This document shows, piece after piece, positions 10,956 to 36,632 of a DNA stretch of 64,000 nucleotides. Below the pieces are notes generated by a model. It did no database searches and was not told where the DNA came from. It saw nothing but the letters and a program-made list of their open reading frames with translations. Every line of letters starts with the position of its first letter. Position 1 is the stretch's first letter. Made by a program: the position numbers and the translations under genes. The stretch comes from Parcubacteria bacterium C7867-008. Lineage in GTDB: Bacteria > Patescibacteriota > Minisyncoccia > Phycocordibacterales > Phycocordibacteraceae. The stretch spans positions 313,635 through 377,634 of the forward strand of contig LFCR01000004.1 in NCBI GenBank assembly GCA_001189215.1. The letters run 5' to 3'.

Positions 10956-11102
10956 AGCATAGCCTAAATCTTACCACTTTTTAATGTTAATGGCTATGGC
11001 AGAAGGCGGTGGGGACAAAAGCGCAAAAAAGCCGCTTGTTCCTAATGCTAACTATAGTATGTAGATTCATAGTTAGCAAGTGCCTAGACTTCATAGTAAC
11101 CT

Positions 11103-11315
11103 ATGAACAGGCAACTTTTAGTAAAATTCGGGAAGCGGGTGCGCGACGAAAGAATCAAAGCCGATCTTTCGCAGGAAAAGCTCGCCGAGAAGGCCAAGGT
11201 CCACAGGACCTACATTGGCATGATCGAGCGGGCCGAGAAAAACATCACGCTTTCAAACATGGAAAAGATAGCGAAGGCCCTCGGCATGAAGCTAAATCAG
11301 CTGATTGACTTCTAG
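11103..11315 (+). CDS. XRE/Cro-C1 family HTH transcriptional regulator
   Basis: 70 aa, classic HTH_3 (LSQEKLAEKAKVHRTYIGMIERAEKNITL...KIAKALGMKL). Confidence 0.8.
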   Translation: MNRQLLVKFGKRVRDERIKADLSQEKLAEKAKVHRTYIGMIERAEKNITLSNMEKIAKALGMKLNQLIDF

Positions 11316-11352
11316 TTGGCTTTCTGCTGAAAATAGCTATAATGTAAGCCAC

Positions 11353-11988
11353 ATGAGGACTAACGTTTATATCGATGCATCGAATCTTTTCTACGGCGGC
11401 AAGAAGTCGCTTGGTTGGAGCATCGACTATAAAAAGCTGTACGAATATCTTGAGGACAAATACCAGGCAGGACAGGTGTTCTTTTTCGGCGGCGTGGAGA
11501 TCCACAAGTTCCCTTTCAACTACCTAACGAATGATTCGGTGCCCGTGCGCGAGCTCGAGCAGTATCTGGTCAAATTGATTGCGGAGAAAGGCGACGCGCT
11601 GAGCGAAGCGGAGTTGAAGTTAATTGATCGCCACTTGAAGCGTGTGCGCTTCTATCTCAAGATTGCGAAGTTTGGATATCAAATGGTGTTGAAGCCGGTC
11701 AAGACTTTTTATGACGCGGAAGGCTCTCCAACTCGGAAGGCTAACTGCGATGTCGACATGGCTTTCTTTCTTATGCGCGATAAGAACATGTACGATCGTG
11801 CGGTCATTCTGTCTGGCGACGGGGATTTTCTGCCGGTGTTGAAGTTCTTGCGGGAGGAAGGCAAGAAGGAGATTTACATACTTGCTCACGCTTCGAGGAC
11901 GGCGAAAGAGATCAAGCGATTTGCTGCAGAGAAGTTTCTCGACTTCGCTTATTTGCGCGAACGCTTGAAGCGTACTGACGGAGAGTAG
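11353..11988 (+). CDS. NYN/LabA-like (PIN-fold) nuclease domain protein
   Basis: NVYIDASNLFYGG...CDVDMAFFLMRD...AVILSGDGDFLPVLKFLREEGK matches the NYN-domain acidic motifs. Start moved to the internal ATG (the ORF track starts at 11305). Confidence 0.6.
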   Translation: MRTNVYIDASNLFYGGKKSLGWSIDYKKLYEYLEDKYQAGQVFFFGGVEIHKFPFNYLTNDSVPVRELEQYLVKLIAEKGDALSEAELKLIDRHLKRVRFYLKIAKFGYQMVLKPVKTFYDAEGSPTRKANCDVDMAFFLMRDKNMYDRAVILSGDGDFLPVLKFLREEGKKEIYILAHASRTAKEIKRFAAEKFLDFAYLRERLKRTDGE

Positions 11989-12057
11989 ACCCATAAACAG
12001 CGAACGGCACCCATGTAGGATGCCGTTCAGGTCTGATGTGTCTATTATACTCCGCTC

Positions 12058-12264
12058 CTATTCCGTGTCAATCCCGATATGGGTATCTCGGTAATGGGCG
12101 TAGTTCCCCATTATTTCGAGGATTTCTTCCCTGTTGAGCTGTACACCTTCTTCGTCGAGGGCGAGCTCCTCTACTGCGATCGTATCGAACATGTTTGTCC
12201 GGCCGCTCTGGCGGACGCTTTCGTAGGCGAGGAACTTCTCTTTGCTGATCAGTGACTTTTCCAT
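12058..12264 (-). CDS. hypothetical protein
   Basis: 68-aa acidic ORF at the end of the lysis-side operon; no recognisable domain. Confidence 0.3.
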   Translation of the reverse strand: MEKSLISKEKFLAYESVRQSGRTNMFDTIAVEELALDEEGVQLNREEILEIMGNYAHYRDTHIGIDTE

Positions 12265-12305
12265 GTGAGCGACACATTACCTGGAACGTGTAGGAAGTAA
12301 AGCGT

Positions 12306-12483
12306 TTACTTCCCTGCGTAAGGCTGGCTTGAATCTCCCTTGTTCGAGAAGTAGAAGGACGAGGCCGCAATCGCCAGGATCATGAACTGGTCCACCGGCA
12401 GCTTGTTCAGGATAAATCCTGCGCAGGCGGTGAGCGTGAGGACGAGGAAGACGAGCTTTGATGCTGAATTGAAGATGGTCATT
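12306..12483 (-). CDS. small membrane protein (holin- or spanin-like candidate)
   Basis: Hand-translated 58-aa ORF (MTIFNSASKLVFLVLTLTACAGFILNKLPVDQFMILAIAASSFYFSNKGD...) with two hydrophobic segments, 2 nt downstream of the amidase gene. It is below the ORF-track length cutoff. Confidence 0.35.
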
Positions 12484-12484
12484 T

Positions 12485-13090
12485 TTATAATTGATTAAGA
12501 AGGTTAGTAATTTGCGCCTTGATGGCTTCCCTGCTCTGCGTCGGCACAGAGAGGATTCGCTTGAGCAGTTCTGTACGGACCGACTCGGGCTTTTCTTTGT
12601 AGTCGGAGATGTCGCCGTGGATGATGATATTCTTCTCGTCGAGGATGAATGCCGTCTCAGGATTGTTTGCGAAGGACTTCACAAGCTCGGCCAGCATTTG
12701 GTACTGCCACTCCGTGATGTCGTTTTCGTTCGGCTCGACCACGCCGTCCTGATCCACGTCGTATCCGGCTGCGAGCTCGATTCCGATCGTGTACTGGTTT
12801 GGATTGACGTAGGAGTTGTCGCGGTTCTTGAGCATAATCCGCTTCGCTCGGTCATTTGGGTTGCTGATCGCGCCTGCGTGCCATGCGACGTCGGTGAGCT
12901 TCACGAGCTGTGTGATCTCTCCTTCCTTCCGGCCGATGACGTAGTGCGCCGAGGATCGATTCGGTCTGTCAGCGTTTGATAGCCAGCTGACTGCTCCGTT
13001 GTATGCGCCGAGCGTCAGGTGCAGGACCACGGCGATCTTCTTCGTGGGACCGGCTGCGTAGTTCGGGGTCTGCTTGAATGGGATGTTCAT
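12485..13090 (-). CDS. N-acetylmuramoyl-L-alanine amidase (Amidase_2/PGRP, phage endolysin type)
   Basis: SAHYVIGRKEGEITQLV...VAWHAG...YTIGIELAAG matches Amidase_2 (T7 lysozyme-like) zinc amidase motifs. It sits between two small TM proteins. Confidence 0.75.
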   Translation of the reverse strand: MNIPFKQTPNYAAGPTKKIAVVLHLTLGAYNGAVSWLSNADRPNRSSAHYVIGRKEGEITQLVKLTDVAWHAGAISNPNDRAKRIMLKNRDNSYVNPNQYTIGIELAAGYDVDQDGVVEPNENDITEWQYQMLAELVKSFANNPETAFILDEKNIIIHGDISDYKEKPESVRTELLKRILSVPTQSREAIKAQITNLLNQL

Positions 13091-13095
13091 AAAAA

Positions 13096-13380
13096 TTATG
13101 GGTTAACTACTGGCAGTCGTTCGTCGAGAATCGTCTCGATCCGGGTGAGCCGTTCGCTTGTGCTTTGGAACTGGTCTTGGTTCTGATCGTCGATGCGCTT
13201 TACGTTTTCTTCGATCGTATGGATATGGTTGTCGCGTATGTTGTTCAGGGCCTCGATGACTTTGATGTCTTCCTTCGGTGCCTGCAGCATATTGAAGACT
13301 CCGAACGCGACGCCCACGATGCCGATCACGAGGGCCACCTGGTTGTATAAAAACTTCTTTAACGGCTCCGTTTTCTCCAT
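13096..13380 (-). CDS. holin-like small membrane protein
   Basis: 94 aa: one N-terminal TM helix (VALVIGIVGVAFGVF) plus a charged coiled-coil tail, immediately upstream of the endolysin. Confidence 0.4.
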   Translation of the reverse strand: MEKTEPLKKFLYNQVALVIGIVGVAFGVFNMLQAPKEDIKVIEALNNIRDNHIHTIEENVKRIDDQNQDQFQSTSERLTRIETILDERLPVVNP

Positions 13381-13408: not shown

Positions 13409-13424
13409 TATCTGTAGGAATTAC
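13409..13424 (-). promoter_or_regulatory. conserved phage motif copy 1 (GTAATTCCTACAGATA on gene strand)
   Basis: Located 28 nt upstream of the holin-like start (13380). Confidence 0.55.
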
Positions 13425-13576
13425 AAAAGAGGACCAGGGTAAAGGACATTTGCACCACTAATCAGCTTATGGATAGAATTGGTCCATGCCTTACGCGGTA
13501 TTTTTCATATCCCTGGCGATACTCGTTTTTCTCGGAGGAGCTATCTTAGGACCTATCGGAGTTGCCCTTGGCGCAG

Positions 13577-15628
13577 TTATTGCGTTCCTGTTGGCACTTG
13601 GTTCAGCTTTTCTTTTTCACTAGAAAGAATCTCGTTGACCGCTTTCGTTCCTTGGGAGTTGAGAAGCTTGACCCAGTATTTCGCTGCCTCGAGCGATCCC
13701 ACTTCCATGAGCTTGTTTGCCAGCTCTGACTTCTGGACCGCGCGTAGCGTGTTGAACCAGGTGCTGTTGAGCGCGGTGGTAAGTCCGACGGCGAGTGTGC
13801 CTCCGGCCACAGTTCCGACTGCCGAGCCAGGAGGACCGGCTGCGAAGCCTCCGGCTGTTCCGCCGACTGTCGCGCCACTGCTTCCCATAACCGCGTTGAA
13901 CCATGAGATGAGTGGTCGTGCTTCCCTGCGCTTCGCCGTTTCGTCGAGTATGTCGAAGAGCCTCGAGTTGAGGCTGTATACCTTGTTGATCTTTTCGTAC
14001 TCCGGATTGTTCGTGTTCAGAAGGTCACGGATCGCGCCGTCGATCTTTCGGACCTGCGAGAGCATGCCGTTGTCATCGACTGTCTTGAGACTCTTTCGCG
14101 TTTCGTATACCACGTTGCCATAATCCTGTGCGAGTTCGCGGAGGTCTTGCTGATACGCTTCGGTCGGCATGTTGTAGAGGTGCAACGACTGAATGTCATC
14201 CCGTAGTTTCTTAAGCTGCGTGATCTTTGATGAATTTACCGATATAGGCTTCTGCGGCATCGCTTCAGACACCACCTGCTTAAGTGTTCGGGAATACTCG
14301 TCGATGCTGTCCATCTTTCCGAGATCCAGGTTATCGATAAGGTCGCCTATGTCATCGATGCCGTTATGGCGCAGCTGGTCCACGATGTTCTTCTTCGAGT
14401 CGGCGATGATCGCTGCGGTCCCTCCCGCTTTCTTGATCTGCTTCGCCATGTCCGGGTCTGCGAGGAGCTGCCGGGCAGTTTCGAGATGGTTGTCGATGGT
14501 GCTTTGGACCGCTCCGGTCTTTTCTGAGAAGGCTCGACCGCCTTGCGAGTAGTTCGAGATTTCGTCGTCGATCTTCGTGAGGATGCCGTCCGTGCCGATA
14601 GAGCCCTGGAGCTCGCCGAGCTTCTGATACTCCTCGTTCGAGAGCCGAATTCCCTTTTCCGCTTTCTTGATGAGTTGCTTGCGCGTACCCCATGCCTTCT
14701 CGTCGAGTAGGTCCGGAATGATTTTCTCGGCCTGCTCTTTGTATTTCTCTTTTGTCGCACTCAGTCCTCGCTTATAGCTTTCCACCGCTTCTTTTTTGAG
14801 GGTTTCCGGGCTGAGGTTCTTCATGTTCGCAAAGCCGGACAGCGTACCTCCTATAACGCCTGATATCGCTCCGCTTCCGAGCGCCCTTTTCATGATGGTC
14901 GGCAGGTCTTCGTCGTCCTGCATGGCGGAGGATGCACCGTAACTTACGCCTACCGGGACCGCTTCTCGCGCTCCTTCGATAAAACCTTTGCCGAATGCCG
15001 CGACTTTTGAGGTTGCGGTCGGTACCGTCTTTTGGAACGCCGTTGATGCGCCTTCCGGAAGCGCCCGCGCGAGCACCCCGCTTGCGCCTCCTTTCACGAG
15101 CAGCTTGCCGGTCTGTGCGCCCTTCGCGGCGTTGCCGTAGGTGCCGAATGAAGCGATGTCGGTTGCGACACCCAGTCCCTCGCCGAATATCTGCTTCGCG
15201 CTTTTGTTTACACTTGCGTTCGTCTCATTGATATCGATGGGCGGCTTGCTTGTGTCTTTCAGGTGCTGCTGTAGCGCAGCATCGAGGCGGGTAGTGTCTT
15301 CGCCGCGAGCTTTCTTTTCCTTAATGGTCTTAAGGAGATTGTTTGCGATCTCCTCGCTCCTTTTCATGAGCTCTGCGTTCTGGTTGTTCGTCCACGCCGC
15401 GCTTCCTGGCACGAATCCTGGGAGCGCGTCGGCGATGCTCTTACCGAACTTCAGTTCGCTTGAGATAAGGGTCTTACCGATTGTTTTTAGTACGCCGTCT
15501 TTCTTCGGCGGCTCTGGCTGCGCGTCGGAAGTAGGAAGGTTGTTCAACCATTCCTGGATTTCTTCCTGGCTTGCGCCTTGGGACTCGAGCGCTTCTATAT
15601 TCTGTTGTATTTTTTCGTGCGTAAGCAT
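13577..15628 (-). CDS. phage virion protein (internal-virion/tape-measure-like)
   Basis: 683 aa, largely alpha-helical with a Gly-zipper C-terminus (GSSGATVGGTAGGFAAGPPGSAVGTVAGG), in the tail-gene block. Confidence 0.45.
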   Translation of the reverse strand: MLTHEKIQQNIEALESQGASQEEIQEWLNNLPTSDAQPEPPKKDGVLKTIGKTLISSELKFGKSIADALPGFVPGSAAWTNNQNAELMKRSEEIANNLLKTIKEKKARGEDTTRLDAALQQHLKDTSKPPIDINETNASVNKSAKQIFGEGLGVATDIASFGTYGNAAKGAQTGKLLVKGGASGVLARALPEGASTAFQKTVPTATSKVAAFGKGFIEGAREAVPVGVSYGASSAMQDDEDLPTIMKRALGSGAISGVIGGTLSGFANMKNLSPETLKKEAVESYKRGLSATKEKYKEQAEKIIPDLLDEKAWGTRKQLIKKAEKGIRLSNEEYQKLGELQGSIGTDGILTKIDDEISNYSQGGRAFSEKTGAVQSTIDNHLETARQLLADPDMAKQIKKAGGTAAIIADSKKNIVDQLRHNGIDDIGDLIDNLDLGKMDSIDEYSRTLKQVVSEAMPQKPISVNSSKITQLKKLRDDIQSLHLYNMPTEAYQQDLRELAQDYGNVVYETRKSLKTVDDNGMLSQVRKIDGAIRDLLNTNNPEYEKINKVYSLNSRLFDILDETAKRREARPLISWFNAVMGSSGATVGGTAGGFAAGPPGSAVGTVAGGTLAVGLTTALNSTWFNTLRAVQKSELANKLMEVGSLEAAKYWVKLLNSQGTKAVNEILSSEKEKLNQVPTGTQ

Positions 15629-15630
15629 GG

Positions 15631-17220
15631 CTAATTCGGTAGGACATAGGTCTTGCCGCTCTTACTCGTAAACGATGCCGCTTCTCCTGTTGGAGCAGCT
15701 CCCTGGCCGAGCTCGGACTTGAGCGAGGTCGCCTTGCTGTTTAGCCCCGTGTAGATGGACTCGAAGCGGGATACGTCTCGTTGACCGGCGGCCATTGAGT
15801 TGAGCTGACTTGCGAGTGATCGCGTTGCAATGTCGAGCGTCATTGCCATGACTGCCTTGTTCACATCGCCGGTGCTGCGGAGGTTTGCGATCGTGCGCGA
15901 GTAGTTCTCGATATCCGCATCGGTCAGCACACCCACTTCGCCGTACACGCCTCGTGCGAGCTTCGGTACGATTGCAGTAATGGCGGCTTTCATCTGCTGC
16001 GCCTTCGTGTCATACGGATTGTTGCTCTTGATGATTCCGACGATCGGTCCGGTATCGACGCTGTTTATGAGGCTTGTGAGCGTATCGGCTTGACTGACGA
16101 TCGTCTGGATATCGGTGATTGGCTTCAGCTCGCCCTGGGTCATTACCCTGCCGCCCCTGGAACCTCGAATAGCCTCGAGGGTGTAGTTCGGGTCGTCATA
16201 GGCCAGCGTGGTTCCTGGACCGCTTCCGCTGCCTGATCCGCTTTTCGGTGCATAGGTCTTCGCGCGTTCTGCCACAAGCTTTGCGGTGCCGGTTTCAGGA
16301 TCGTAAACGTAGCGTGCTTCCCCTTCAGTTAGGTCGAACTGATTCGCTTCCATTTTCGCTTTGTCGAGATCGACTTTATCTTTTTCTACTTCTCGATTAG
16401 CCGACTCCTGCTGCGTCTTGATATCCGCGAAGAAGCTGGAAAGCTGGTCCTTCGTAAAGCCGTACTGGTCCTGGATTTTCTCGAAGTCCTTGTCGTCGAT
16501 CTCCGTAGGGTCCACGCCGAGCGCGAGCATGTTCCGGAGGAATGAGGTGATCTGCTCTTTCTTTCGACCTCCTTGCGTCTCGAGGAACTCGAAGTATTTG
16601 TCAGCGCCTTCCTTGATTGCCACACGCTTAGCCTCGATCTCTGCCTGCGCATCTTTACTTGCAGCACCGAGTAGAGCGCCGATCTTCACGTTCGCCTCGC
16701 TGCGATACGTCTGTTCTTCCTGGTTGTTGAAGTCCTCGGTTGCACGGAACTCTGACTCGCCGGTCGCGCTTCCGATTCGACCTCCAGCGGCCGCGAGCGC
16801 GTAGCTCTGGCCTTCGCGGTTCTTAGCGGTCGTGCCGCGGAAGTTCGCTATCTGGTCTGTAACGGCTGCATTTATGACGTCGATCTGTCCCTGGATGCGG
16901 GCACGAGTGGCGTTGCGAATGGCGGCTTCGTTGACCTTGTCGGTCGCCTGCGACTTCAAGGTTTTACCTATCTTCGTTGTCGTAGGGTCTTCCACGTAAT
17001 CAGGGACCGACACTTTCGCCACCTGTGCGATGGTTTGCTTCTTGCCTGCGTTCGGATCGGCTACAGGAGCATCCGCGCCCAGACTAATGCTCTTACCCGC
17101 ATATATCTTGTTCGGGTCGCTGATCGAGGGGTTAAGCACCATCAGTTCCTGGACGCTTTTCCCTGTCTGTGAGGCGATGCTGCTTAAGGTATCGCCGTAT
17201 TTGATGGTGTACGAGCTCAT
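15631..17220 (-). CDS. LysM domain-containing phage virion protein
   Basis: N-terminal LysM (YTIKYGDTLSSIASQTGKSVQELMVLNP...IYAGKSISL) followed by a long helical region. Confidence 0.6.
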   Translation of the reverse strand: MSSYTIKYGDTLSSIASQTGKSVQELMVLNPSISDPNKIYAGKSISLGADAPVADPNAGKKQTIAQVAKVSVPDYVEDPTTTKIGKTLKSQATDKVNEAAIRNATRARIQGQIDVINAAVTDQIANFRGTTAKNREGQSYALAAAGGRIGSATGESEFRATEDFNNQEEQTYRSEANVKIGALLGAASKDAQAEIEAKRVAIKEGADKYFEFLETQGGRKKEQITSFLRNMLALGVDPTEIDDKDFEKIQDQYGFTKDQLSSFFADIKTQQESANREVEKDKVDLDKAKMEANQFDLTEGEARYVYDPETGTAKLVAERAKTYAPKSGSGSGSGPGTTLAYDDPNYTLEAIRGSRGGRVMTQGELKPITDIQTIVSQADTLTSLINSVDTGPIVGIIKSNNPYDTKAQQMKAAITAIVPKLARGVYGEVGVLTDADIENYSRTIANLRSTGDVNKAVMAMTLDIATRSLASQLNSMAAGQRDVSRFESIYTGLNSKATSLKSELGQGAAPTGEAASFTSKSGKTYVLPN

Positions 17221-17227
17221 TTCTTTT

Positions 17228-19231
17228 TTAGACTTCGATCATCGTGTAGTACCTGCCGGGGTACATGATCGCGGCGTTAGGCAGAGGATTCTTTATCTTG
17301 AGATTCATTCCGTAGTCGTCGACATCGAGCATCGGGAATAGAAGTCCGCACCCGAACGGATAGTCGTAGCTGATCGTCTTCTTGTACTCGTCGTTAAGGT
17401 ACAGCTCTACGTTTGCGGAGAGCGGCCAGACGCTGTACATCGGCATGTATCGCGGCGATCGTTCGATGCCGAAGTGGATGGCGAAGTTGCCTACCTTTCC
17501 GTAGGTATGCCCGCCCTGGATGCGGTAGCTGACGTCGTTCGAGTAGGCGTCTTCGCCGCTGGCGATAGTACGCGCGGCATAGTAGCCCCTCGGATTGAGA
17601 CGATTCCTGACGGGATCGTATTCGATGAGATTCATCTGCGTGTCGTTTGCGAACCAGTATTTGTTCGAGCCGAGCGGCACAATCCAATGCAGATAGTTGT
17701 TTTGGCTGATTCCCGAGCGGGTTCGGTATGGAACCGTGGACGTCGTGCCGGAGACGGAAATAAGGAAGAGGTTTGCGCCTCCGCTGAATTCACCGTCTTC
17801 GTCGTCAGTGATGTACATGATCCTGTCGGCGGCGACTTGGATGCCGCGATGCTCGTTGAGACCGCCCGCTACCTGGGAATTAGTTACTCTGAAGGCGACT
17901 CCGTTCGATATCGTCGCAGCCGAGACTGTGCCTGCGGCAGTCCACATGGCACCGCCGTTGGCATAGAAGATTTGGTATTTGTTTGCACCGTTTGCGACAG
18001 GTATGACCTGAGTGCAGCCGGTTAAGACGACACCCGTACCGTAACCAGGAACCGTTCCCGTGAGCGAGACGACTACGATCTGCGGGTCAGCTGCCGTTGC
18101 TGGCTTCCATGCGAGAAGCGCCTTATCGACGTCGAGCTGTATGAGCCTGCTTTGCGCAAGGTCGACCGCCGTGAAGACCACGCCGGAGTTGACGGCGCAG
18201 CTTGTGCCGGTGATCGAGATGCTGGCGGTATAGATGTCCAAGCCGGTGCCCTTGTAGGAAAGAAGCGCCTTGTCGGTATTTACCATGACCACATCGCATT
18301 CTTCGATTCCGTTCGAGAAGCCGATGGATGCAGGGACCCCGAAGGTCAGTGCTCCGTCCGATGCGACCGAGAACACTACGACTTTCGTAAGACTCGCAGC
18401 GGCATCATGGAAGAGGAGTAGGCCGCGAGTAGAATCAACCTCGATCATCTTGTAGATGTTGTTGCTGCCGTTCGCCACCAGACCGGTGAGTGTGGTCTGC
18501 TCGAATCGCTTGTGCATGACGCTGAGCAGGAGTGAGTTCAGGCGCTTCACTTTCGATCCGTAGTTATCGGGAAATACGATCTTGAGGAAGCCGTTAAGGT
18601 CCACGAATGGATTGCATGGCTTGGAAGTCCTGCCTGTGTAGTTCTCGTTGTTGAGCTTCGACGGGTTAGGCATCGCCCATCCGGAGTTGTTAGCGTCGTA
18701 GTCCCAGATGGTGCGGAGTAGGAAGTCCGGAGTGGTCGCTTCTGCGCCTGCACGGGTCGTGCCGAGCGTTACTCCGTTGAACTGGTTACCTGCACCAGCC
18801 ATCGTCTCGGTAGTGGCGATACTGTTGCCGACGACGCCCGCAGTCTTTGCTGTTACCACAGCATTGTTTCCAACGAAGGTATCTATCGTGACGTCTTCGT
18901 TCACTTTCGTGGCCAGAGCATACTGCGTGCCGGGCGTGCCGATGAGGTTTACTGCGGCGACGAGGTTCGCCTGTGTTTCTATGGCGCTGCCTCCGATCTT
19001 CACGTTGCCGTCCGAGTTAGTCAGCGTGTCTTGAAAAGTGTAGACGCGCGAGCCGATGGTGATCGTCTCGCCGTTTATCGGATTGACCGGGATCGAGAGG
19101 GTTCCCTGCGCTTTGACCGGAGGATACGAGCCAGCTGCGATACCTTCCGTCTGGAGAGGCTGGATCGACATATGCGCCCACCCGCGTTGCGGGGAATGCC
19201 TCTCGTTCTTGAATGCGTTTATATTGAACAT
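17228..19231 (-). CDS. phage tail protein (tailspike/tubular-like)
   Basis: 667 aa, beta-rich Gly/Thr/Asn-rich composition, in the structural block. Confidence 0.45.
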   Translation of the reverse strand: MFNINAFKNERHSPQRGWAHMSIQPLQTEGIAAGSYPPVKAQGTLSIPVNPINGETITIGSRVYTFQDTLTNSDGNVKIGGSAIETQANLVAAVNLIGTPGTQYALATKVNEDVTIDTFVGNNAVVTAKTAGVVGNSIATTETMAGAGNQFNGVTLGTTRAGAEATTPDFLLRTIWDYDANNSGWAMPNPSKLNNENYTGRTSKPCNPFVDLNGFLKIVFPDNYGSKVKRLNSLLLSVMHKRFEQTTLTGLVANGSNNIYKMIEVDSTRGLLLFHDAAASLTKVVVFSVASDGALTFGVPASIGFSNGIEECDVVMVNTDKALLSYKGTGLDIYTASISITGTSCAVNSGVVFTAVDLAQSRLIQLDVDKALLAWKPATAADPQIVVVSLTGTVPGYGTGVVLTGCTQVIPVANGANKYQIFYANGGAMWTAAGTVSAATISNGVAFRVTNSQVAGGLNEHRGIQVAADRIMYITDDEDGEFSGGANLFLISVSGTTSTVPYRTRSGISQNNYLHWIVPLGSNKYWFANDTQMNLIEYDPVRNRLNPRGYYAARTIASGEDAYSNDVSYRIQGGHTYGKVGNFAIHFGIERSPRYMPMYSVWPLSANVELYLNDEYKKTISYDYPFGCGLLFPMLDVDDYGMNLKIKNPLPNAAIMYPGRYYTMIEV

Positions 19232-19235
19232 AAAA

Positions 19236-21999: not shown

Positions 22000-22001
22000 G
22001 G

Positions 22002-28150: not shown

Positions 28151-28182
28151 GATGGACTGAGTATGTGAGCGAAAGTTGTTCT

Positions 28183-28197
28183 TTCTGTAGGAATTAC
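28183..28197 (-). promoter_or_regulatory. conserved phage motif copy 4 (one substitution)
   Basis: TTCTGTAGGAATTAC, 32 nt upstream of the portal gene start (28150). Confidence 0.5.
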
Positions 28198-29988: not shown

Positions 29989-30373
29989 CGACGCGGTCGA
30001 GGACTATGGAGATTGCCTTTAGGTCCCCGTCCATGGCCTTGCGCGTGAGCTTGTCGGCGATAACGTCGCCTACCGACACCTTTTGCCCGTCTCGCGTGAC
30101 GCCTCCTGCGCTGTCGACCTTGTATCTGATCTTTCCTGCCATGTGTCGGGCACCGAGCGGCTTGCCTGGATTACCTTCGGTGAAGCGGCCATTGACCGGG
30201 TCCCTGCCCGTATTTTCCCCGTATTTACGGTCAGGAGTTGGCGCTTCTAAAGGCCCGGAGTTGGCTTCTCCGGCTTCTACTGACGTTTGCTCCTGCGTGG
30301 CGGCCGGTACGGCCTTGGGAGCCGGGAGCAGGAGGAGCGTCTCTTGCGGTTTTTCATTATTCTTCAGGTTCAT
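29789..30373 (-). CDS. terminase small subunit-like protein
   Basis: Contains the NGRFTEGNPGKPLG motif common in phage small terminase/DUF5681-type proteins. Confidence 0.4.
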   Translation of the reverse strand: MNLKNNEKPQETLLLLPAPKAVPAATQEQTSVEAGEANSGPLEAPTPDRKYGENTGRDPVNGRFTEGNPGKPLGARHMAGKIRYKVDSAGGVTRDGQKVSVGDVIADKLTRKAMDGDLKAISIVLDRVDGKVPLAIEVNPVERQGVREYTPEEQAEFDSLFSRNDKPETESIAEAGNPGGNPGTPESTERSAYE

Positions 30374-31685
30374 GCTCGGTTATGGTCCGGGACCAGGCTT
30401 CCGGCTCGCCATTCCGGACTACCTGCTCTATGCCGGTGAAGTCCACCCATCGCTGCACGATCACGTCGGCGAACTTTGGATCGAGCTCCATTCCCACGCA
30501 GACGCGTCCAGTCTTTTCGCAGGCGATAAGCGTGCTGCCGCTGCCGAGGAATGGGTCGACCACCACGTCTTCTGCTTTCGAGCTGTTCATGAGCGCGTAA
30601 GTGATGAGCTCCACCGGCTTCTGTGTTGGATGTTGGTATTCGTTCACGCGGTCGCGCTTCATCGTCCAGATCGTGAGCTTTCCTTCAGTCTCGAGCTTCT
30701 TCTGCCGCTTCGCCCAGTTGAGGAGTTTCTGCTCGCTGTCGTGGAAGTCGATGATGGTCGAGTGTGTGCGATCGCCGTAGAAGACAGTCTCGGTGCCTTC
30801 CTTCGATGCGTAGAAGAATGGCTCATGCTTCCATCGGTAATCGCCCCAGCCCATCGATGCCGTCGGTTTATTCCAGATGAGTTGGTTTCGGATCGCCATG
30901 CCGAACTTCTTCAGCGCGTTCTCGAATTGCGCTTGCGTTGACGTTGAATGGAAGACGTACCAGCCAGCGCCGGTCTTTGCAGCGTTTGCGATCTGTCGGA
31001 ATGCGTTCTCAAGGAAAGTATCGAACGCCTCCGCATCCATGTGATCGTTCATGATGCCTTCGCTTGTCTTCTTACCGCGTCCCGCATAGTTCACGTTGTA
31101 CGGCGGGTCCGTGAAGACGCAGTCGGCTTTGCGGCCGTTCATTGCCCTGCTCCATGCTTCCTCGTCAGTTGAGTCGCCGCAAACGATCGTGTGTGGACCG
31201 AGCTGATACATGTCGTTCAGCCTGCTCCGCGGCTCGATCGGCGTTTCCGGGACCACGTCGTCCGCTTCATCGTCCTCGAGAATGATGTCGTGGTCGAAGC
31301 CTGTAAGCGTGATGTCGAAGCCAGCAGCGTCGAGCAGCTTCAGTTCGTCCGTGATGAGCATCAGGTCCTGGCCGGTGAGCGCGTTTATCTGGTTGTCGGC
31401 GATGCGATACGCTTTGACCTCGTCTTCGGTTAGGTCGTCGACCAGCACATACGGAATGACCGGCTCGCCTTTCTTCGTGAACGCTTTCTGCTCCATGAGC
31501 GTGTAGCCCAGGAGATCCGTCATGGCGATGAAGCGGCCGTGCCCGACCACTATCACGCCATCTTTATCGAGAATGATCGGCTGCTTGCATCCGAACGCCT
31601 TTATGGAATTGGCGATCTTCTCCAGCTGGAAGTCTGGATGCTCCTTGGCGTTCTTCTCGTACTTTTTTACGTCGGTGATCTGCAT
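30357..31685 (-). CDS. ParB-like nuclease domain / N6-adenine DNA methyltransferase fusion
   Basis: N-terminal ParB/Srx fold (PIILDKDGVIVVGHGRFIA) plus MTase motif IV FTDPPYNV. Confidence 0.8.
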   Translation of the reverse strand: MQITDVKKYEKNAKEHPDFQLEKIANSIKAFGCKQPIILDKDGVIVVGHGRFIAMTDLLGYTLMEQKAFTKKGEPVIPYVLVDDLTEDEVKAYRIADNQINALTGQDLMLITDELKLLDAAGFDITLTGFDHDIILEDDEADDVVPETPIEPRSRLNDMYQLGPHTIVCGDSTDEEAWSRAMNGRKADCVFTDPPYNVNYAGRGKKTSEGIMNDHMDAEAFDTFLENAFRQIANAAKTGAGWYVFHSTSTQAQFENALKKFGMAIRNQLIWNKPTASMGWGDYRWKHEPFFYASKEGTETVFYGDRTHSTIIDFHDSEQKLLNWAKRQKKLETEGKLTIWTMKRDRVNEYQHPTQKPVELITYALMNSSKAEDVVVDPFLGSGSTLIACEKTGRVCVGMELDPKFADVIVQRWVDFTGIEQVVRNGEPEAWSRTITEHEPEE

Positions 31686-32514: not shown

Positions 32515-33087
32515 TCATTGGCCCCCATGCCTGAACCGATTGAGGGACATTTTTTGAGTGAGTTCTCTTTTCAGGACTCCTAAGTTATCCACAGGGTCCC
32601 TAATACTTGGTTTCTCTTTCTTTCCTAGGTTTTGTGTGTTCACTACCTGAACCGATTTCGGTCTACTACCTGAACCGCTTTTGGTACGCCCAGCAGACTG
32701 GTTCACTACCTGAACTACTTTTTCCACATCCATATGCAGGTTTATTTGGTAGTAGTTCCCCTTCGTCGTTCCCCTGATCGAAATCGCTCCCGCCTCATTC
32801 AGACTCTTGAGACCTTTGGCGACCGAGGCACGCGCTAAGCCCGCACCGTAATCGAGCACGTTGCCACGGCGATCTTTTATTCCATCCATGAATTGCGAGA
32901 AGCTGATGCGGTCTGCGTCTTTATGAAATCCGAACGTGCGACGGCAAATGTAAAGAAGACATCGCGCTTCTGCTTCAGGGATAAGGGGAATAACCTTATC
33001 GAGGAGAATGTTTGGTAGCTGTGTGCTGTTTGGTATGAAAGATGTTGTTTTGTGTTCATCCATAGTTTTTTGGAAGAGAAGAAGCAT
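32515..33087 (-). CDS. putative phage replication initiator (winged-helix, lambda O/DnaD-like)
   Basis: The N-terminal region resembles replisome-organiser wHTH; the 3' end of the gene contains iteron repeats. Confidence 0.4.
   Translation of the reverse strand: MLLLFQKTMDEHKTTSFIPNSTQLPNILLDKVIPLIPEAEARCLLYICRRTFGFHKDADRISFSQFMDGIKDRRGNVLDYGAGLARASVAKGLKSLNEAGAISIRGTTKGNYYQINLHMDVEKVVQVVNQSAGRTKSGSGSRPKSVQVVNTQNLGKKEKPSIRDPVDNLGVLKRELTQKMSLNRFRHGGQ
32529..32724. repeat. iteron-like direct repeats (candidate phage ori) inside replication gene
   Basis: ACTACCTGAAC at 32641, 32664 and 32704 (each preceded by TTC/TCT), plus CCTGAACCGATT at 32529. Spacings are 23 and 40 bp. Confidence 0.6.
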
Positions 33088-33187: not shown

Positions 33188-34378
33188 CTACTTGCCACTC
33201 TTAGGAGCCTTGGCGGCTTTCCGTTCGGGCTTCCCGTCTTTCGTCTCTCGAAGGTCTTTCTCGAACTTCTGCTCAGGTGTTGGTTCTGGCACCTGTTCGC
33301 CTTTTGCTTCAGCGATCTTCTGCTGTGCGAATTCCTGGACCTTGGCGTAGCCGTCCTCGAGGATGTCAGGGCGCATCGTCTCGATCGCGGACCAGCTGCG
33401 AGTCCCGAAGGCGTAGTCGAGAGCGTCTACCTTGTTCTTCCTCTCGGCCGCGCTTGTGCTCGGCCAGATAGATACCAGGTAGCTTTCGATCTCCTCGAGC
33501 CAGCGCTTCCTTTCGAGGACCCACTTGCGCTTGTCCTCCTCGGTCCGGATCAGCTCGCCTGCGTCCCTTACTGCAGGGCTAAAACGGGCTGCTGCCGGGT
33601 CTTTGATGACCGCCTCGATTGCCGGTGCGAAGTCCTCGTAGGTCGGGTTCTTGAAGACCTTTCCGTCGAGGAGGTTGCCGCGGCCCTTGAGGACAGTTGC
33701 CTGTCGCCATACCTCTCGGTTCTTTCGAGTGATGAGCTCGTGGCGCTCCATGAGCACCAGGACATCGAACTCGTAGGCGGCATTCTTCTCGGCCTGCATC
33801 TTCACGCCTGTCTTCGTGAATTCTTTGCGGCCATCCTCATCTACCTCCTGCTCCATGCGATCCGACACGCGCCCGGTGGCGATGATGTGGAGCGGTGACT
33901 GGACCATCGGTATCGAGAAGTTCCGGTTCCAGTCGGACTTGATTGCCATCCAATCCTGGATTTGGAACGTCTGACGATTGAGCTTTCGCTTGTACGCCTC
34001 TTGGAAGTCCATCCAGATGTGAGTGATGCTGTCGATCACTACGATGTCCGAATATCCTTCCTGACAGAGCTTCATTGCCGTTACCAGGTCAGCGAGCGAG
34101 TGTGACTCGCGCACCATCGCTTCGATCCCGTGCTCCTTGAAGAGAGGGACCAGGAACTTTGATGCTTTCTCGGTGTCGATAAGGACAATGGGCTTTGTGC
34201 TGCCGATCTTCTTGTGAAGACCGATTGCTACTAATGCGGCACTCCAGCTCTTGCCGGTGCCAGGCTCTCCTTCAAAGGCTGCCTTGAAGTAGGGTTTGGT
34301 GTTCCCGATTGCGGTGAAGAAGTTTTCTTCAGTCGCTATTGGGACCACGCTTGGTCTTTCTAATGTTGCGGTAGTCAT
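33188..34378 (-). CDS. RecA-fold ATPase, AAA_24/Sak4-like (phage recombination/replication)
   Basis: Walker A GEPGTGKSW, Walker B IVVIDSITHIW. Confidence 0.55.
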   Translation of the reverse strand: MTTATLERPSVVPIATEENFFTAIGNTKPYFKAAFEGEPGTGKSWSAALVAIGLHKKIGSTKPIVLIDTEKASKFLVPLFKEHGIEAMVRESHSLADLVTAMKLCQEGYSDIVVIDSITHIWMDFQEAYKRKLNRQTFQIQDWMAIKSDWNRNFSIPMVQSPLHIIATGRVSDRMEQEVDEDGRKEFTKTGVKMQAEKNAAYEFDVLVLMERHELITRKNREVWRQATVLKGRGNLLDGKVFKNPTYEDFAPAIEAVIKDPAAARFSPAVRDAGELIRTEEDKRKWVLERKRWLEEIESYLVSIWPSTSAAERKNKVDALDYAFGTRSWSAIETMRPDILEDGYAKVQEFAQQKIAEAKGEQVPEPTPEQKFEKDLRETKDGKPERKAAKAPKSGK

Positions 34379-34459
34379 AGTTTTTTTATGCTATTGACTC
34401 TCCGAAGCGGCCTCTGATACGATGTATCTGTTGGTGAGGGACCTTCTTCGGAAGGTCTT

Positions 34460-34756
34460 TTACTTTTTCTCCTTGAATAATTTGAGTCGTGCGTCTAAGT
34501 CGTCATGCATCTCCTCCTGGAGCTGACTGATGACTTCCCTGATTAACCCGTCCCGGATGATTCCGCATGCCATTACGGTGGCTTTGGTATCTTTCGTGTC
34601 GATGTTCGTCAGGCTGCCCATGATGTCGCCGATATATTCCGCGACCTCATCGAGCGTGTGAGGGATGATCATTTCCCGGACATTTGTCGGGGCTTTATCC
34701 TTCACTGCCGCTAGGGCTTCCCTCGCTAATGCTTTGCGTCGTTCTTGTTTCGTCAT
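34460..34756 (-). CDS. hypothetical protein
   Basis: 98-aa ORF whose 3' end overlaps the next ORF. Confidence 0.3.
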   Translation of the reverse strand: MTKQERRKALAREALAAVKDKAPTNVREMIIPHTLDEVAEYIGDIMGSLTNIDTKDTKATVMACGIIRDGLIREVISQLQEEMHDDLDARLKLFKEKK

Positions 34757-35033
34757 CTGATTCGTTGAATCGGACTCTGAACTCTCGCTTTTCCTTTCGC
34801 CTCTTTTGGTTCTTAAGGCTTAAGGGAGCGTTCTTGCTCAGGCTTATTCCTTTAGGCTGATAATCGATGTCGATAACGTCTCCGATTGAGAGTCGGTATC
34901 TTTGAGTGAGCCAGTGGCCTTCGAGGATCAGGGCTGGTATTCCTGGTCGCCGGTAGGTCACGGCGCGAGTGGTTCTAAGTGCTTTTTTCATTGCTAGCAT
35001 CTGACCCCGTCGGGCCGATCCCTTTCGGGACAA
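34695..35033 (-). CDS. SymE-like / AbrB-fold (SpoVT-AbrB) domain protein
   Basis: YRRPGIPALILEGHWLTQRYRLSIGDVIDIDYQPKGISL closely parallels E. coli SymE ([26 protein letters not shown]). The start is uncertain (internal Met residues). Confidence 0.5.
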   Translation of the reverse strand: MSRKGSARRGQMLAMKKALRTTRAVTYRRPGIPALILEGHWLTQRYRLSIGDVIDIDYQPKGISLSKNAPLSLKNQKRRKEKREFRVRFNESDDETRTTQSISEGSPSGSEG

Positions 35034-35042
35034 TGATCTGGA

Positions 35043-35528
35043 TTAGCTGCTGAACTCGTCGAGGAGTTTGCGCTCGGCACTCATCAGGATCGTGCTGCCC
35101 TCGCCCAGGCGCTTCTCGGCCAGGATGATCCTGTGCGTCTTGAAGCAATACTGGCCGAGCCTGGATGCCAGGAAGGAGGCAGCTACGTTGATGTCCCCCT
35201 TGAGCCCGATACTCCACTCCGTGACCTGCTCTACAGGCTTCAGGTACTCCTTGTAGTCGTAGATGGTGAGGACGATCATCTTGCCCTTGTGGATGGCCTT
35301 GAAGGCCCACTCGGCTCTGACCTTGCCGTCTCCGGACCGCCAGGGTCCTTCGTTGGTGCAGTCATGCGGCTTCCCGAATGCCTGGACCATGGTTTCGTAG
35401 TCGGCCATCATTTGGCCCCGACCGCCCGACCCCTTTACGTCTGCCCGCCTTGCTTTCACGAACTTAATTTGTGGCTCCATAATCACTTTTGATTGGCTGG
35501 TAAAATCGACCTTTTTGGGTGAGCTCAC
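35043..35528 (-). CDS. hypothetical protein (first gene of phage rightward-end operon)
   Basis: 161-aa ORF with no recognisable domain. Confidence 0.35.
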   Translation of the reverse strand: MSSPKKVDFTSQSKVIMEPQIKFVKARRADVKGSGGRGQMMADYETMVQAFGKPHDCTNEGPWRSGDGKVRAEWAFKAIHKGKMIVLTIYDYKEYLKPVEQVTEWSIGLKGDINVAASFLASRLGQYCFKTHRIILAEKRLGEGSTILMSAERKLLDEFSS

Positions 35529-35537
35529 GGGGCATAG

Positions 35538-35570
35538 AAAAAGCCCCGCTTGCGCGGAGCTTTTTCTTTT
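35538..35570 (-). terminator. intrinsic terminator downstream of gap
   Basis: AAAAAGCCCCGC-ttgc-GCGGAGCTTTTTCTTTT; on the minus strand the hairpin is followed by a TTTTTCT tract. Confidence 0.7.
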
Positions 35571-35588
35571 CGGTCTGTGATATGAAGG

Positions 35589-36632
35589 CTACTTTCCTTG
35601 CTTGGCTTCTGCCTCTTTCAGGTATTGGCCTGCTTTGATGACGTGGAGCAATAACGTCTGGGTGTACCCGGCTTCGTTGTCATACCAGGCAAGTACTTTA
35701 ACCAAGTTGCCGTCTACAACTCGTGTCATACCAAGATCTGCGATTGAAGCAAAGCGTTCTCCAATAATATCGCTTGATACCAGCTCATCATCTGTTGCTG
35801 AGAAGATACCCGCCCAACGTGCATCCTTAGCAGCGGTACGAAGAATCTCGTTTACTTCTTCTGCAGTGGTAGGACGCTTGGCGATGAACGTTATGTCAGC
35901 GATAGATCCTGCAGGCACGGGTACGCGAAGTGAGATACCATCAAACTTTCCTGCAAGTGACGTGTATGCCTTCGTAACAGCAACGGCAGCACCTGTTGAA
36001 GTTGGGACAATGTTCTGTGCAGCAGCGCGTCCTTCCTTCATATCTTTCTTTGATGGACCATCAACAATAGACTGACTCGCCGTGTACGCGTGTGTGGTTG
36101 AAAGAATTGCCTTTTCAATACCAATTGCCTCATCAAGAATAGCAATAACTGGTGAAGCTGAGTTCGTGGTACATGATGCGTTGCTGGTTATAGCGCATGT
36201 TCCAAGCTTTGATTCATCAAGTCCCATAAGAACTGTTGCACCAAGTGGATTCTCATCTTTTACGGGTGCTGAAATAACAACACGGCGAGCTCCGGCTGTG
36301 ATGTGTGCGTTTGCCTTTTCGTAATCAGTGAAAAAACCAGTTGACTCAATAACTACATCGATATTTAAATCTTTCCATGGGAGCAAGGTGGGATCTTTTT
36401 CTGAACAAAACACTACCTCCTTTCCGTTAACCATAAGCTTCCCTTCTGTAACTGATACCGGAAAGGGTGCGCGCTTATAGACGGTGTCGTACTTAAGAAG
36501 GTATGCGAGGTTCTCAAGCGAGCCAAGATCATTTACAGCCACAAGTTCAATCTCTGGACGATCAAAACTCTGACGAACAAAGGCGCGACCAATACGACCG
36601 AACCCATTAATTGCTACTCGGACTGGTTTCAT
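35589..36632 (-). CDS. gap: glyceraldehyde-3-phosphate dehydrogenase, type I
   Basis: NGFGRIGR Rossmann motif and the active-site SNASCTTN segment. Confidence 0.9.
   Translation of the reverse strand: MKPVRVAINGFGRIGRAFVRQSFDRPEIELVAVNDLGSLENLAYLLKYDTVYKRAPFPVSVTEGKLMVNGKEVVFCSEKDPTLLPWKDLNIDVVIESTGFFTDYEKANAHITAGARRVVISAPVKDENPLGATVLMGLDESKLGTCAITSNASCTTNSASPVIAILDEAIGIEKAILSTTHAYTASQSIVDGPSKKDMKEGRAAAQNIVPTSTGAAVAVTKAYTSLAGKFDGISLRVPVPAGSIADITFIAKRPTTAEEVNEILRTAAKDARWAGIFSATDDELVSSDIIGERFASIADLGMTRVVDGNLVKVLAWYDNEAGYTQTLLLHVIKAGQYLKEAEAKQGK

What the first reader, a model, noticed from the sequence alone, without database searches (positions are those of the whole stretch)
11000..35600. 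~24.5-kb podovirus-like prophage or phage remnant with no integrase
Nearly all genes are transcribed leftward: early genes and replication (35.5-32.5 kb), then the ParB-MTase fusion, terS/terL, portal, scaffold, capsid, tail genes and lysis, with an XRE-HTH + NYN pair on the opposite strand at the left end. The compact size and gene order resemble short-tailed phages. Phages of candidate-phyla bacteria are poorly described. No tyrosine or serine recombinase and no tRNA is present. The element may therefore be a defective remnant, use an integrase outside the window, or replicate as an episome (it carries a ParB domain and its own ori).
Basis: partly seen in the sequence, partly recalled or inferred. 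Interest (0 to 1): 0.6.

Follow-up and report, generated by a model that had tools for sequence, protein, structure and literature searches.

The report
Gap-integrated temperate podophage of Parcubacteria
The flagged stretch is a real, intact-looking short-tailed prophage in a candidate-phyla (Parcubacteria) genome, but it is about 38.8 kb rather than 24.5 kb, and its "missing" integrase sits just beyond the left edge of the window, so it is an ordinary integrase-driven prophage inserted into the end of the GAPDH gene.

Summary
The phage genes are real. Large terminase, SU10-type portal, amidase endolysin, ParB-methylase and a replication O-like initiator pass profile searches. The capsid protein and a podovirus tail nozzle were confirmed by predicted fold.

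The boundaries and the "no integrase" claim do not hold. The window matches Parcubacteria bacterium C7867-008. A contig 100% identical to the window's left 10.4 kb continues past position 1 with a PRTase-like gene, a 378-aa tyrosine integrase, a displaced GAPDH 3' fragment (attR), then rpiB-rpe-tkt.

Four related genomes without the phage have rpiB-rpe-tkt directly after intact gap. This is an empty site. attL lies inside the gap 3' end at 35662-35689, and attL to attR is 38,803 bp.

The element therefore includes the 24-kb phage core, a roughly 9.5-kb variable cargo (NYN/XRE, Hsp70-like cluster, AAA ATPase) and a conserved SppA...TrpR-like-PRTase-Int module.

At least 11 other metagenomic contigs carry relatives at the same gap site, one in tandem with a second phage. 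Their phage proteins are 79-96% identical to the window's, while host proteins on the same contigs are 49-64% identical. That points to recent horizontal spread.

Verdict: a new member of a known kind, of moderate interest as a well-resolved phage lineage of Patescibacteria.

The parts
35662..35689 (-). attL core region inside the gap coding sequence (CCTGGTATGACAACGAAGCCGGGTACAC, encoding ...WYDNEAGY...)
   Evidence: This is the only att-like site in the window (pattern search, 3 mismatches allowed). The matching attR, CCTGGTACAACCATGAGATGGGGTATAC, lies after the integrase on L159. The same junction sequence follows Int in L140, L155, L156 and L157.
35533..35661 (-). Phage-supplied replacement 3' end of gap (last ~24 codons, stop at 35589), followed by a terminator hairpin
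   Evidence: The tail ...TQTLLLHVIKAGQYLKEAEAKQGK* differs from the empty-site relatives' ...THTLVEHAIKAGNA*. The displaced fragment after Int reads ...THTLVEHAIKAGQA*, which matches those relatives. That the tail is phage-derived is an inference.
34460..35518 (-). Early region: conserved box CCAAAAAGGTCGA (35499-35518) and three small early genes (35043-35480, 34695-35033, 34460-34756)
   Evidence: The genes are conserved in the same order directly after gap in relatives. The box is conserved in L001, L006 and L014. No family hits.
33188..34378 (-). AAA_24 / Sak4-like ATPase (recombination or replication)
   Evidence: PF13479 9e-8; phrog_1366 9e-40 and phrog_124 Sak4-like 6e-11.
32515..33087 (-). 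Replication initiator O-like, with internal iterons at 32637-32722 (probable origin)
   Evidence: PF04492 9e-8; phrog_678 9e-18; direct-repeat families D2 and D19.
30357..31685 (-). ParB-like domain fused to an N6/N4 DNA methyltransferase
   Evidence: phrog_498 2e-132 and phrog_620 6e-37; PF01555 4e-34.
28204..30373 (-). DUF5681 protein (29789-30373; small terminase by position only) and large terminase (28204-29886)
   Evidence: PF18932 2e-7; phrog_38 1.4e-40.
26135..28150 (-). Portal protein
   Evidence: PF23899 SU10_portal 9e-13, 47.9 bits against a cutoff of 30.
22716..24880 (-). Scaffold-like protein (23963-24880, by position and composition) and major capsid protein (22716-23918)
   Evidence: Capsid protein: AlphaFold2 pLDDT 79.9, pTM 0.78. 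Foldseek PDB top hits are the Sf6, CUS-3, P22, A4 and T7 capsid proteins, E 2e-9 to 1e-7, with 180 hits at E<=1e-3.
20098..22631 (-). Head-tail adaptor (22002-22631) and tail nozzle/hub (20098-21999)
   Evidence: PF24175 SU10_adaptor 1e-5, 26.4 bits against a cutoff of 27. Nozzle: AlphaFold2 pLDDT 86.2; Foldseek hits the Pa223, A4, VP1, SU10, P22 gp10 and T7 gp12 tails, E 3e-15 to 1e-9.
13577..20057 (-). Tail fibre-like 273 aa, 667-aa tail protein, LysM 529-aa protein and 683-aa protein (probably fibres or spike plus ejection/internal proteins)
   Evidence: phrog_16641 tail fibre, weak; LysM PF01476 7e-12. Conserved in order in relatives. The roles are inferred.
12058..13380 (-). Lysis cassette: 94-aa membrane protein, Amidase_2 endolysin (12485-13090), 58-aa membrane protein, 68-aa ORF. 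This is the end of the conserved phage core.
   Evidence: PF01510 3.5e-18; phrog_1794 amidase. Similarity to relatives stops after the 58-aa gene.
11103..11988 (+). Cargo: control-protein-type XRE HTH plus NYN nuclease
   Evidence: PDLC03665 8e-24 and PADLOC NYN 2e-8; PF01936 1.6e-18.
2730..10955 (-). Cargo: 169-aa protein, Hsp70-like 837 aa, 532 aa, Yip1, Cys-rich 288 aa, AAA ATPase (IetA-like), DUF6804, 192 aa
   Evidence: PF00012 4e-75, PF00004 1e-34, PF04893; IetA 5e-33. Relatives carry R-M or other defence genes at this position.
1..2727 (-). Integrase-proximal module, in-window part: SppA-like S49 peptidase (1891-2727), 86-aa ORF, TauE (836-1573), 118-aa protein, TrpR-like HTH (42-368). 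It continues outside the window with a 337-aa PRTase-like protein, the 378-aa tyrosine integrase and attR.
   Evidence: PF01343 7e-30 and PF01371 2e-14. The gene table of L159 shows PF00156, PF00589 and then rpiB. L159 positions 1-10368 are 100% identical to the window. The same order is seen in L155 and L140.
13409..28197 (-). Four copies of GTAATTCCTACAGAWA (28182-28197, 24938-24953, 20086-20101, 13409-13424) upstream of late genes
   Evidence: Four found against 0.07 expected. Conserved in relatives. A role as a late promoter or regulatory box is inferred.

Best explanation
The finding is the central part of a 38.8-kb temperate, short-tailed (podovirus-like) phage integrated in the chromosome of Parcubacteria bacterium C7867-008.

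Integration. A phage tyrosine integrase recombined attP with an attB inside the conserved WYDNE.GY-coding 3' end of gap (GAPDH). The phage supplies a replacement gap tail and a terminator at attL (window 35533-35689). The original gap tail is displaced to attR, about 3.1 kb left of window position 1, just before rpiB.

Gene order, read from gap on the minus strand:
- early genes
- Sak4-like ATPase and an O-like initiator with iterons
- ParB-methylase
- terminase, portal, scaffold, HK97-fold capsid, adaptor, nozzle, fibres and internal proteins
- lysis genes
- a variable cargo slot, here NYN/XRE plus an Hsp70-like/AAA cluster
- a conserved SppA...TrpR-like-PRTase-like-integrase module next to attR

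Shown: phage gene identities, both att sites, the integrase, the empty site in relatives, and recurrence at the same site in many genomes.

Inferred: the exact crossover position, the roles of the TrpR-like, PRTase and SppA genes, the late-promoter motif, and whether the prophage can still be induced.
For: - Structural and replication genes were verified.
- The capsid protein is 100% identical to a protein of Parcubacteria bacterium C7867-008.
- L159 is 100% identical to window 10368->1 and continues TrpR-like -> PRTase-like -> PF00589 integrase -> gap fragment -> rpiB-rpe-tktN-tktC-PfkB-aldolase-L25.
- In L023-L026 (gap 83-89% identical), intact gap is followed directly by that same gene string: rpiB 67-78%, tktN 76-90%.
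- The window holds a single att-like site, at 35662-35689.
- The same architecture, gap-phage-cargo-SppA-118aa-TrpR-PRTase-Int-gap', occurs in IMG/VR 3300025323_000513 with a 37.4-kb unit followed by a second, different phage. Int-gap'-rpiB occurs in L140, L156, L162 and L165.
- The early module sits directly after gap in at least 11 independent contigs.
- On L121, host obg, gatB and gap are 49%, 52% and 64% identical to the window's, while phage AAA_24, portal and capsid are 89%, 90% and 96%. This argues for horizontal spread, not vertical inheritance.
Against: - The integrase and attR are not in the window. They were read from another assembly record whose overlap with the window is identical.
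- No excised circular form or free-phage contig was found.
- No repressor has been identified with confidence.
- All genes including the integrase lie on one strand, which is unusual for a lysogeny module.
- The att core is short and imperfect, so the exact crossover point is inferred.
- Some relatives are decayed (L008/L119 lack scaffold, capsid and adaptor; L140/L142 hold a remnant). Inactive copies exist in this family.
Confidence: 0.88

Rival explanations
1. Composite of two elements: a ~24-kb integrase-less phage (12.0-35.6 kb) beside a separate integrative island (cargo plus SppA...TrpR-PRTase-Int). The island provides integration in trans or merely shares the gap hotspot.
For: - Similarity among relatives stops right after the 58-aa lysis gene, and the cargo differs in every relative.
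- The TrpR-PRTase-Int trio also occurs next to unrelated gene sets (L161-L163).
- The integrase-proximal genes are less conserved (57-82%) than the structural genes (85-92%).
Against: - No att-like site or gap fragment lies between the lysis genes and the cargo in the window.
- Where tandem elements do occur, a gap fragment separates them.
- The same core-cargo-Int order is bounded by gap and gap' in the window, in IMG/VR 3300025323_000513 and in L140.
- A P22/T7-like capsid protein fits a genome of about 40 kb better than one of 24 kb. This rests on general knowledge of T=7 podoviruses.
Confidence: 0.07
2. Cryptic or defective prophage: correctly bounded by att sites but no longer able to excise or form particles.
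For: - No free or circular form was found.
- Decayed copies exist in relatives.
- The window's copy lacks the RusA and Dcm genes present in relatives.
- No recognisable repressor or excisionase.
Against: - All core genes are full length against relatives.
- The integrase has the R...HxxR...H...Y residues, read from the sequence.
- Both att sites are intact.
- Near-identical capsid proteins (93-97%) occur in other samples.
Confidence: 0.25
3. Integrase-less element: an episome maintained by ParB and its own origin, or an element integrated by host Xer recombinases at dif.
For: No recombinase in the window. A ParB-like domain and iterons are present.
Against: - A dedicated tyrosine integrase lies beside attR.
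- Host genes flank the element and relatives show an empty site.
- The ParB-like domain is fused to a methylase, and there is no ParA.
- Gene orientation does not switch across the site, so it is not a terminus.
Confidence: 0.01

Closest known systems
Temperate P22-like/Sf6-like podoviruses (lambdoid short-tailed phages with a tyrosine integrase)
   Same: - HK97-fold capsid protein whose best structural matches are Sf6, CUS-3 and P22
- gp10/nozzle-like tail hub
- O-like replication initiator with iterons
- Tyrosine integrase next to att
- Unit size of about 39 kb
- Moron/defence cargo near one prophage end
   Different: - Sequence identity to any cultured phage is very low; large-terminase identity is at most 28%.
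- All genes including int are on one strand.
- attB lies in a protein-coding gene (gap) rather than a tRNA or thrW-type site.
- No cI/cro-type switch was recognised.
- The host is a Patescibacteria (CPR) bacterium.
Escherichia phage SU10 / phiEco32-like kuraviruses
   Same: The Pfam portal model SU10_portal passes its threshold and SU10_adaptor is borderline. The nozzle model matches the SU10 tail chain 7z47_G at E 5e-12.
   Different: - Kuraviruses are described as lytic phages with genomes of about 77 kb, prolate heads and their own transcription factors. This is from my own knowledge and was not tested here.
- This element is 38.8 kb, temperate, and has no polymerase genes.
- The capsid model's top matches are P22-like and T7-like capsid proteins, with no SU10 entry among the 50 listed.
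- The resemblance is distant and confined to the structural module. It is not membership.
Prophages already reported in Paceibacteria/Patescibacteria MAGs
   Same: Integrated tailed phages in ultra-small CPR genomes, some carrying C-5 DNA methylases. Reported prophage lengths average about 44 kb (PMC12455944).
   Different: - That report is a survey and does not mention integrases at all.
- The source-genome paper (PMC4508563) mentions no phage.
- Here both junctions, the target gene, the empty site and the family-wide recurrence are resolved.

Membership tests
Integrated temperate tailed phage (Caudoviricetes prophage) | Large terminase, portal and HK97-fold major capsid protein | tested here: met
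   phrog_38 1e-40; PF23899 above its cutoff; capsid fold matches at E 2e-9.
Integrated temperate tailed phage (Caudoviricetes prophage) | Site-specific recombinase adjacent to an attachment site | tested here: met
   A 378-aa PF00589 integrase lies ~500 nt from attR on L159, just outside the window.
Integrated temperate tailed phage (Caudoviricetes prophage) | attL/attR sharing a core, with the target gene duplicated in part | tested here: met
   attL is at 35662-35689. attR is a gap fragment after Int. The shared sequence is CCTGGTA...GGGTAYACCCA.
Integrated temperate tailed phage (Caudoviricetes prophage) | Empty site in related genomes | tested here: met
   L023-L026 have gap followed directly by rpiB-rpe-tkt. 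The window's genome has the same string after attR.
Integrated temperate tailed phage (Caudoviricetes prophage) | Excision or induction (attP circle, free virions) | not testable with these tools
   No reads were available, and no circular or free contig was found in the look-ups.
Podovirus morphotype | Adaptor plus nozzle/tail hub directly after the head genes | tested here: met
   SU10_adaptor 26.4 bits, cutoff 27. Nozzle fold E 3e-15 to 1e-9 against Pa223, VP1, SU10, P22 gp10 and T7 gp12.
Podovirus morphotype | No tail tube, sheath or tape-measure protein | tested here: met
   No such family hit among any protein from 12 to 22 kb in PHROGs or Pfam. Absence of a hit is weaker than a positive test.
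Kuravirus (SU10/phiEco32-like) | Genome of about 77 kb, lytic lifestyle, SU10-like capsid protein | tested here: not met
   The element is 38.8 kb, integrated and has an integrase. The capsid model's top matches are P22-like and T7-like capsid proteins, with no SU10 entry among the 50 listed. Only the portal, adaptor and nozzle resemble SU10.
Episomal phage-plasmid with ParABS partition | ParA/ParB partition pair and an extrachromosomal state | tested here: not met
   The ParB-like domain is fused to an N6/N4 methylase. There is no ParA, and the element has chromosomal flanks and att sites.
Xer-dependent integrative element (IMEX) | No recombinase of its own; integration at dif at the replication terminus | tested here: not met
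   It has its own integrase. The target is the gap 3' end. Gene orientation does not switch at the site.

The most novel reading that the evidence does not exclude
This prophage may be the best-resolved example of a widespread, Patescibacteria-specific lineage of temperate podophages.
- They target the universally conserved WYDNE.GY-coding end of gap and stack in tandem there.
- They carry an exchangeable 8-13-kb defence/chaperone cargo slot.
- They may control lysogeny with a module not previously described (TrpR-like HTH + PRTase-like protein + SppA-like peptidase next to int) rather than a cI/Cro-type switch.
- The Hsp70-like/J-like/GrpE-like/AAA cargo in this copy could be a new phage-borne defence or host-manipulation system.
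Probability: 0.2. Interest if true: 0.6.

Novelty: new member of a known kind. Interest (0 to 1): 0.35.

Why it matters
Phages of candidate-phyla bacteria are known mostly from surveys. This work resolves one completely: host (Parcubacteria C7867-008, 808 kb), target gene, both junctions, integrase, empty site and a family of relatives.

- The prophage makes up about 4.8% of a reduced genome and brings defence-like and chaperone-like cargo. That bears on how ultra-small symbionts acquire genes.
- The gap 3' end emerges as a recurrent integration hotspot in Patescibacteria, useful for prophage detection and boundary calling. IMG/VR entries for this family are truncated.
- It is also a caution for window-based scans. 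'No integrase' was an edge effect.

Tried and rejected
Exact seeds and blastn-short over 1-13.6 kb against 35.3-36.7 kb gave only chance-level matches, because attR is outside the window.
- **A GAPDH remnant inside the window.** A low-stringency tblastn found none.
- **Host Xer/dif integration.** Rejected on gene orientation and skew, and later by the integrase itself.
- **A hidden integrase in the extra DNA that relatives carry between RepO and the methylase.** That DNA encodes RusA and Dcm.
- **Exact-protein look-ups of GAPDH and TerL.** Not on record. The TrpR-like look-up succeeded.
- **PDB sequence searches** with the capsid protein (alone and as a profile), the nozzle and the portal found nothing. 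Fold search was needed.
- **Free or circular phage contigs.** Look-ups of capsid, nozzle and integrase homologues on ~35-kb contigs returned integrated copies, or no DNA.
- **Rfam** found nothing in the window.
- **PADLOC** called no complete defence system in the cargo.

Full report
**Observation**

Nearly all long ORFs in the 64-kb window lie on the minus strand, and there is no tRNA. G+C is 0.53-0.58 across 12-35 kb, against 0.46-0.50 in the right flank.

- large terminase (phrog_38, 1.4e-40)
- ParB-like/N6-N4 methylase fusion (phrog_498, 2e-132)
- replication O-like initiator (phrog_678, 9e-18; PF04492)
- AAA_24/Sak4-like ATPase
- SU10-type portal (PF23899, 47.9 bits, cutoff 30)
- SU10-type adaptor (26.4 bits, cutoff 27)
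- Amidase_2 endolysin
- a LysM protein
- NYN nuclease and a 70-aa XRE HTH at 11103-11315

Iterons lie inside the O-like gene at 32637-32722.

The capsid assignment was weak by profile (phrog_544, E 0.001) and had no PDB sequence hit. I built an alignment of 26 homologues and predicted the structure (pLDDT 79.9, pTM 0.78). Foldseek returned the Sf6, CUS-3, P22, A4 and T7 capsid proteins at E 2e-9 to 1e-7.

The 633-aa protein after the adaptor was modelled the same way (pLDDT 86.2). It matches the tail nozzle/hub proteins of Pa223, A4, VP1, SU10, P22 gp10 and T7 gp12 at E 3e-15 to 1e-9. No tube, sheath or tape-measure protein was detected. The structural assignments hold and the podovirus-like reading is supported.

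**Searching for the ends**

No direct repeat above chance links 9-13.6 kb with 34.3-37 kb, nor 1-13.6 kb with 35.3-36.7 kb. No GAPDH remnant lies left of the phage.

IMG/VR relatives (TerL 67-85% identical) show that conserved phage sequence stops right after a 58-aa membrane-protein gene (window 12306-12482). Beyond it, each relative carries different defence-type cargo:
- type III R-M plus SIR2
- helicase, two methylases, a restriction enzyme and an Abi-like protein
- Dcm
- HTH_17, Dcm and HpaII

The window's counterpart is a control-protein-type XRE plus NYN (PADLOC 8e-24 and 2e-8), followed by a 169-aa protein, an Hsp70-like 837-aa protein, a 532-aa protein, Yip1, a Cys-rich protein and an AAA ATPase with IetA similarity. 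After the cargo, the order SppA-118aa-TrpR-like recurs in the window (1-2727), in IMG/VR 3300025323_000513 and in a metagenome contig.

**Recurrence at gap**

The early module (three small genes, the AAA_24 protein, the O-like initiator) lies directly after gap in L001/L120, L006, L113/L144, L121, L122, L134, L136, L137, L139, L142, L150 and L152. Some of these carry a different structural module.

On L121 the host genes obg, gatB and gap are 49%, 52% and 64% identical to the window's. The phage AAA_24, portal and capsid proteins on the same contig are 89%, 90% and 96% identical. The phage is therefore much more conserved than its hosts, which points to recent horizontal spread and site-specific integration.

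Other relatives occupy a second locus, near rpmA.

**The integrase**

Contig L140 gave the key. There, TrpR-like is followed by a PRTase-like gene, a 392-aa PF00589 integrase and a ~95-nt gap 3' fragment. A decayed early module and then rpiB-rpe-tkt follow.

L142 has the same sequence (99.5% identical) from that point on, but with an intact gap upstream. This places the recombination point at the TGGTAYGAYAAYGA (WYDNE) codons.

The same integrase (94% identical) follows TrpR-PRTase in IMG/VR 3300025323_000513, the window's closest relative. A gap fragment comes next, and then a second, different phage. This is a tandem array with a first unit of 37.4 kb. L156, L162 and L165 show Int-gap'-rpiB.

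**The window's own genome**

The capsid protein is 100% identical to a protein of Parcubacteria bacterium C7867-008. An exact look-up of the TrpR-like protein returned L159. Its first 10,368 bases are 100% identical to window 10368->1.

L159 continues leftwards in this order:
- 337-aa PRTase-like protein
- 378-aa PF00589 integrase, 1.5-2.6 kb beyond window position 1, with the R...HxxR...H...Y residues visible in the sequence
- the sequence CCTGGTACAACCATGAGATGGGGTATACCCACACG..., encoding ...GYTHTLVEHAIKAGQA*
- rpiB, rpe, a 107-aa ORF, tktN, tktC, PfkB, aldolase and L25

In the phage-free relatives L023-L026 (gap 83-89% identical), intact gap ends ...GYTHTLVEHAIKAGNA*. It is followed directly by that same gene string: rpiB 67-78%, rpe 53-86%, tktN 76-90%, tktC 72-89%. 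This is an empty site.

The window's gap ends instead with ...GYTQTLLLHVIKAGQYLKEAEAKQGK*, which is best read as the phage-supplied tail. The only att-like site in the window is at 35662-35689. attL to attR measures 38,803 bp.

**Mechanism**

Shown:
- a tyrosine-integrase prophage inserted in the gap 3' end
- both junctions and the empty site
- a complete packaging, head, short-tail and lysis gene set
- a replication module with iterons

Inferred:
- The crossover lies near GGGTAYAC.
- The four GTAATTCCTACAGAWA boxes mark late transcription units. There are 4 against 0.07 expected, and they are conserved in relatives.
- The TrpR-like/PRTase/SppA genes next to int belong to the lysogeny module, because the TrpR-PRTase-Int trio recurs even in distant elements.
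- The cargo slot carries defence or host-modifying genes expressed from the prophage.

Inducibility is unknown. Decayed copies do exist in relatives.

**Comparison and novelty**

The closest working analogues are temperate P22/Sf6-like podoviruses. SU10 resemblance is limited to the portal, adaptor and nozzle. TerL identity to any cultured phage is at most 28%.

Prophages in Paceibacteria have been reported in surveys (PMC12455944). The paper describing this genome does not mention a phage (PMC4508563).

This is therefore a new, well-resolved member of a known kind. It is not an integrase-less oddity, a remnant or an episome. Interest is moderate. It rests on the gap hotspot, the tandem arrays, the cargo slot and the uncharacterised int-proximal module.

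Noticed in passing
window 28182-28197, 24938-24953, 20086-20101, 13409-13424 (minus strand): GTAATTCCTACAGAWA occurs four times, against 0.07 expected by chance. Three copies lie 28-31 nt before the portal, tail-fibre and holin-like start codons. The copy before the scaffold gene is 57 nt from its listed TTG start. The motif is conserved before the portal and fibre genes in relatives. It is a candidate late promoter or regulator box.
   Followed up: partly
window 2730-10955: The prophage cargo encodes an Hsp70-like 837-aa protein. Its neighbours are a 169-aa protein (weak GrpE hit) and a 532-aa protein with a J-domain-like N-terminus lacking HPD (by eye). Further along are Yip1, a Cys-rich 288-aa protein, an AAA ATPase resembling IetA (5e-33) and DUF6804. 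PADLOC calls no known defence system. It may be a new phage-borne chaperone or defence cluster.
   Followed up: partly
window 11103-11988 (+): The XRE HTH is of the restriction-modification 'control protein' type (PDLC03665, 8e-24) and is paired with a NYN nuclease. L016 has the NYN gene without the XRE. This looks like a small toxin or defence module rather than the phage repressor.
   Followed up: partly
L001+L017+L155 (IMG/VR 3300025323_000513); L140/L142; L008/L119: Two different prophages sit in tandem at gap, separated by Int plus a gap fragment. A decayed early-module remnant persists after gap in two assemblies. One relative has lost the scaffold, capsid and adaptor genes.
   Followed up: yes
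L107 1-345, L109 1140-1495, L110 1790-2150, L114 1-370, L014 1-335: Relatives integrated at a second locus (near rpmA) carry a conserved ~250-nt non-coding region before the first early gene. It holds three GTCGCA(C/A)AA repeats and a long hairpin. The window lacks this motif (0 matches).
   Followed up: partly
window ~35000-35040 (minus strand): A conserved leader, GTCCCGAAAGGGATCGGCCCGACGGGGTC, with possible small hairpins precedes the second early gene. It is shared with L001, L006 and L010. There is no Rfam match.
   Followed up: no
window 22716-23918 (residues ~222-286) and 17228-19231 (residues ~41-111): The capsid protein's inserted region and the N-terminal part of the 667-aa tail protein cross-match at 35-41% identity in relatives. 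This suggests a shared surface domain.
   Followed up: no
window 38624-55864 and 56620-57621: A giant 5746-aa ORF and a 333-aa ORF both begin with an excisionase-like HTH segment (by eye). The phage-free relative L023 has an ORF of more than 2940 aa before gap. The window's gatB-to-gap interval is expanded by these genes compared with relatives where gatB abuts gap.
   Followed up: no
window 12071-12044 (minus strand): A perfect TTGACA-16-TATAAT promoter-like site lies at the end of the late operon. It points into the convergent NYN gene and is followed by a hairpin at 12029-12001.
   Followed up: no
L161-L163, L165: Integrases 54-55% identical to this one are also next to rpiB (L162, L165). 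In L161-L163 they keep the TrpR-like and PRTase-like neighbours beside otherwise unrelated genes. The integration module appears modular, and the gap/rpiB junction appears to be a general hotspot in Patescibacteria.
   Followed up: partly
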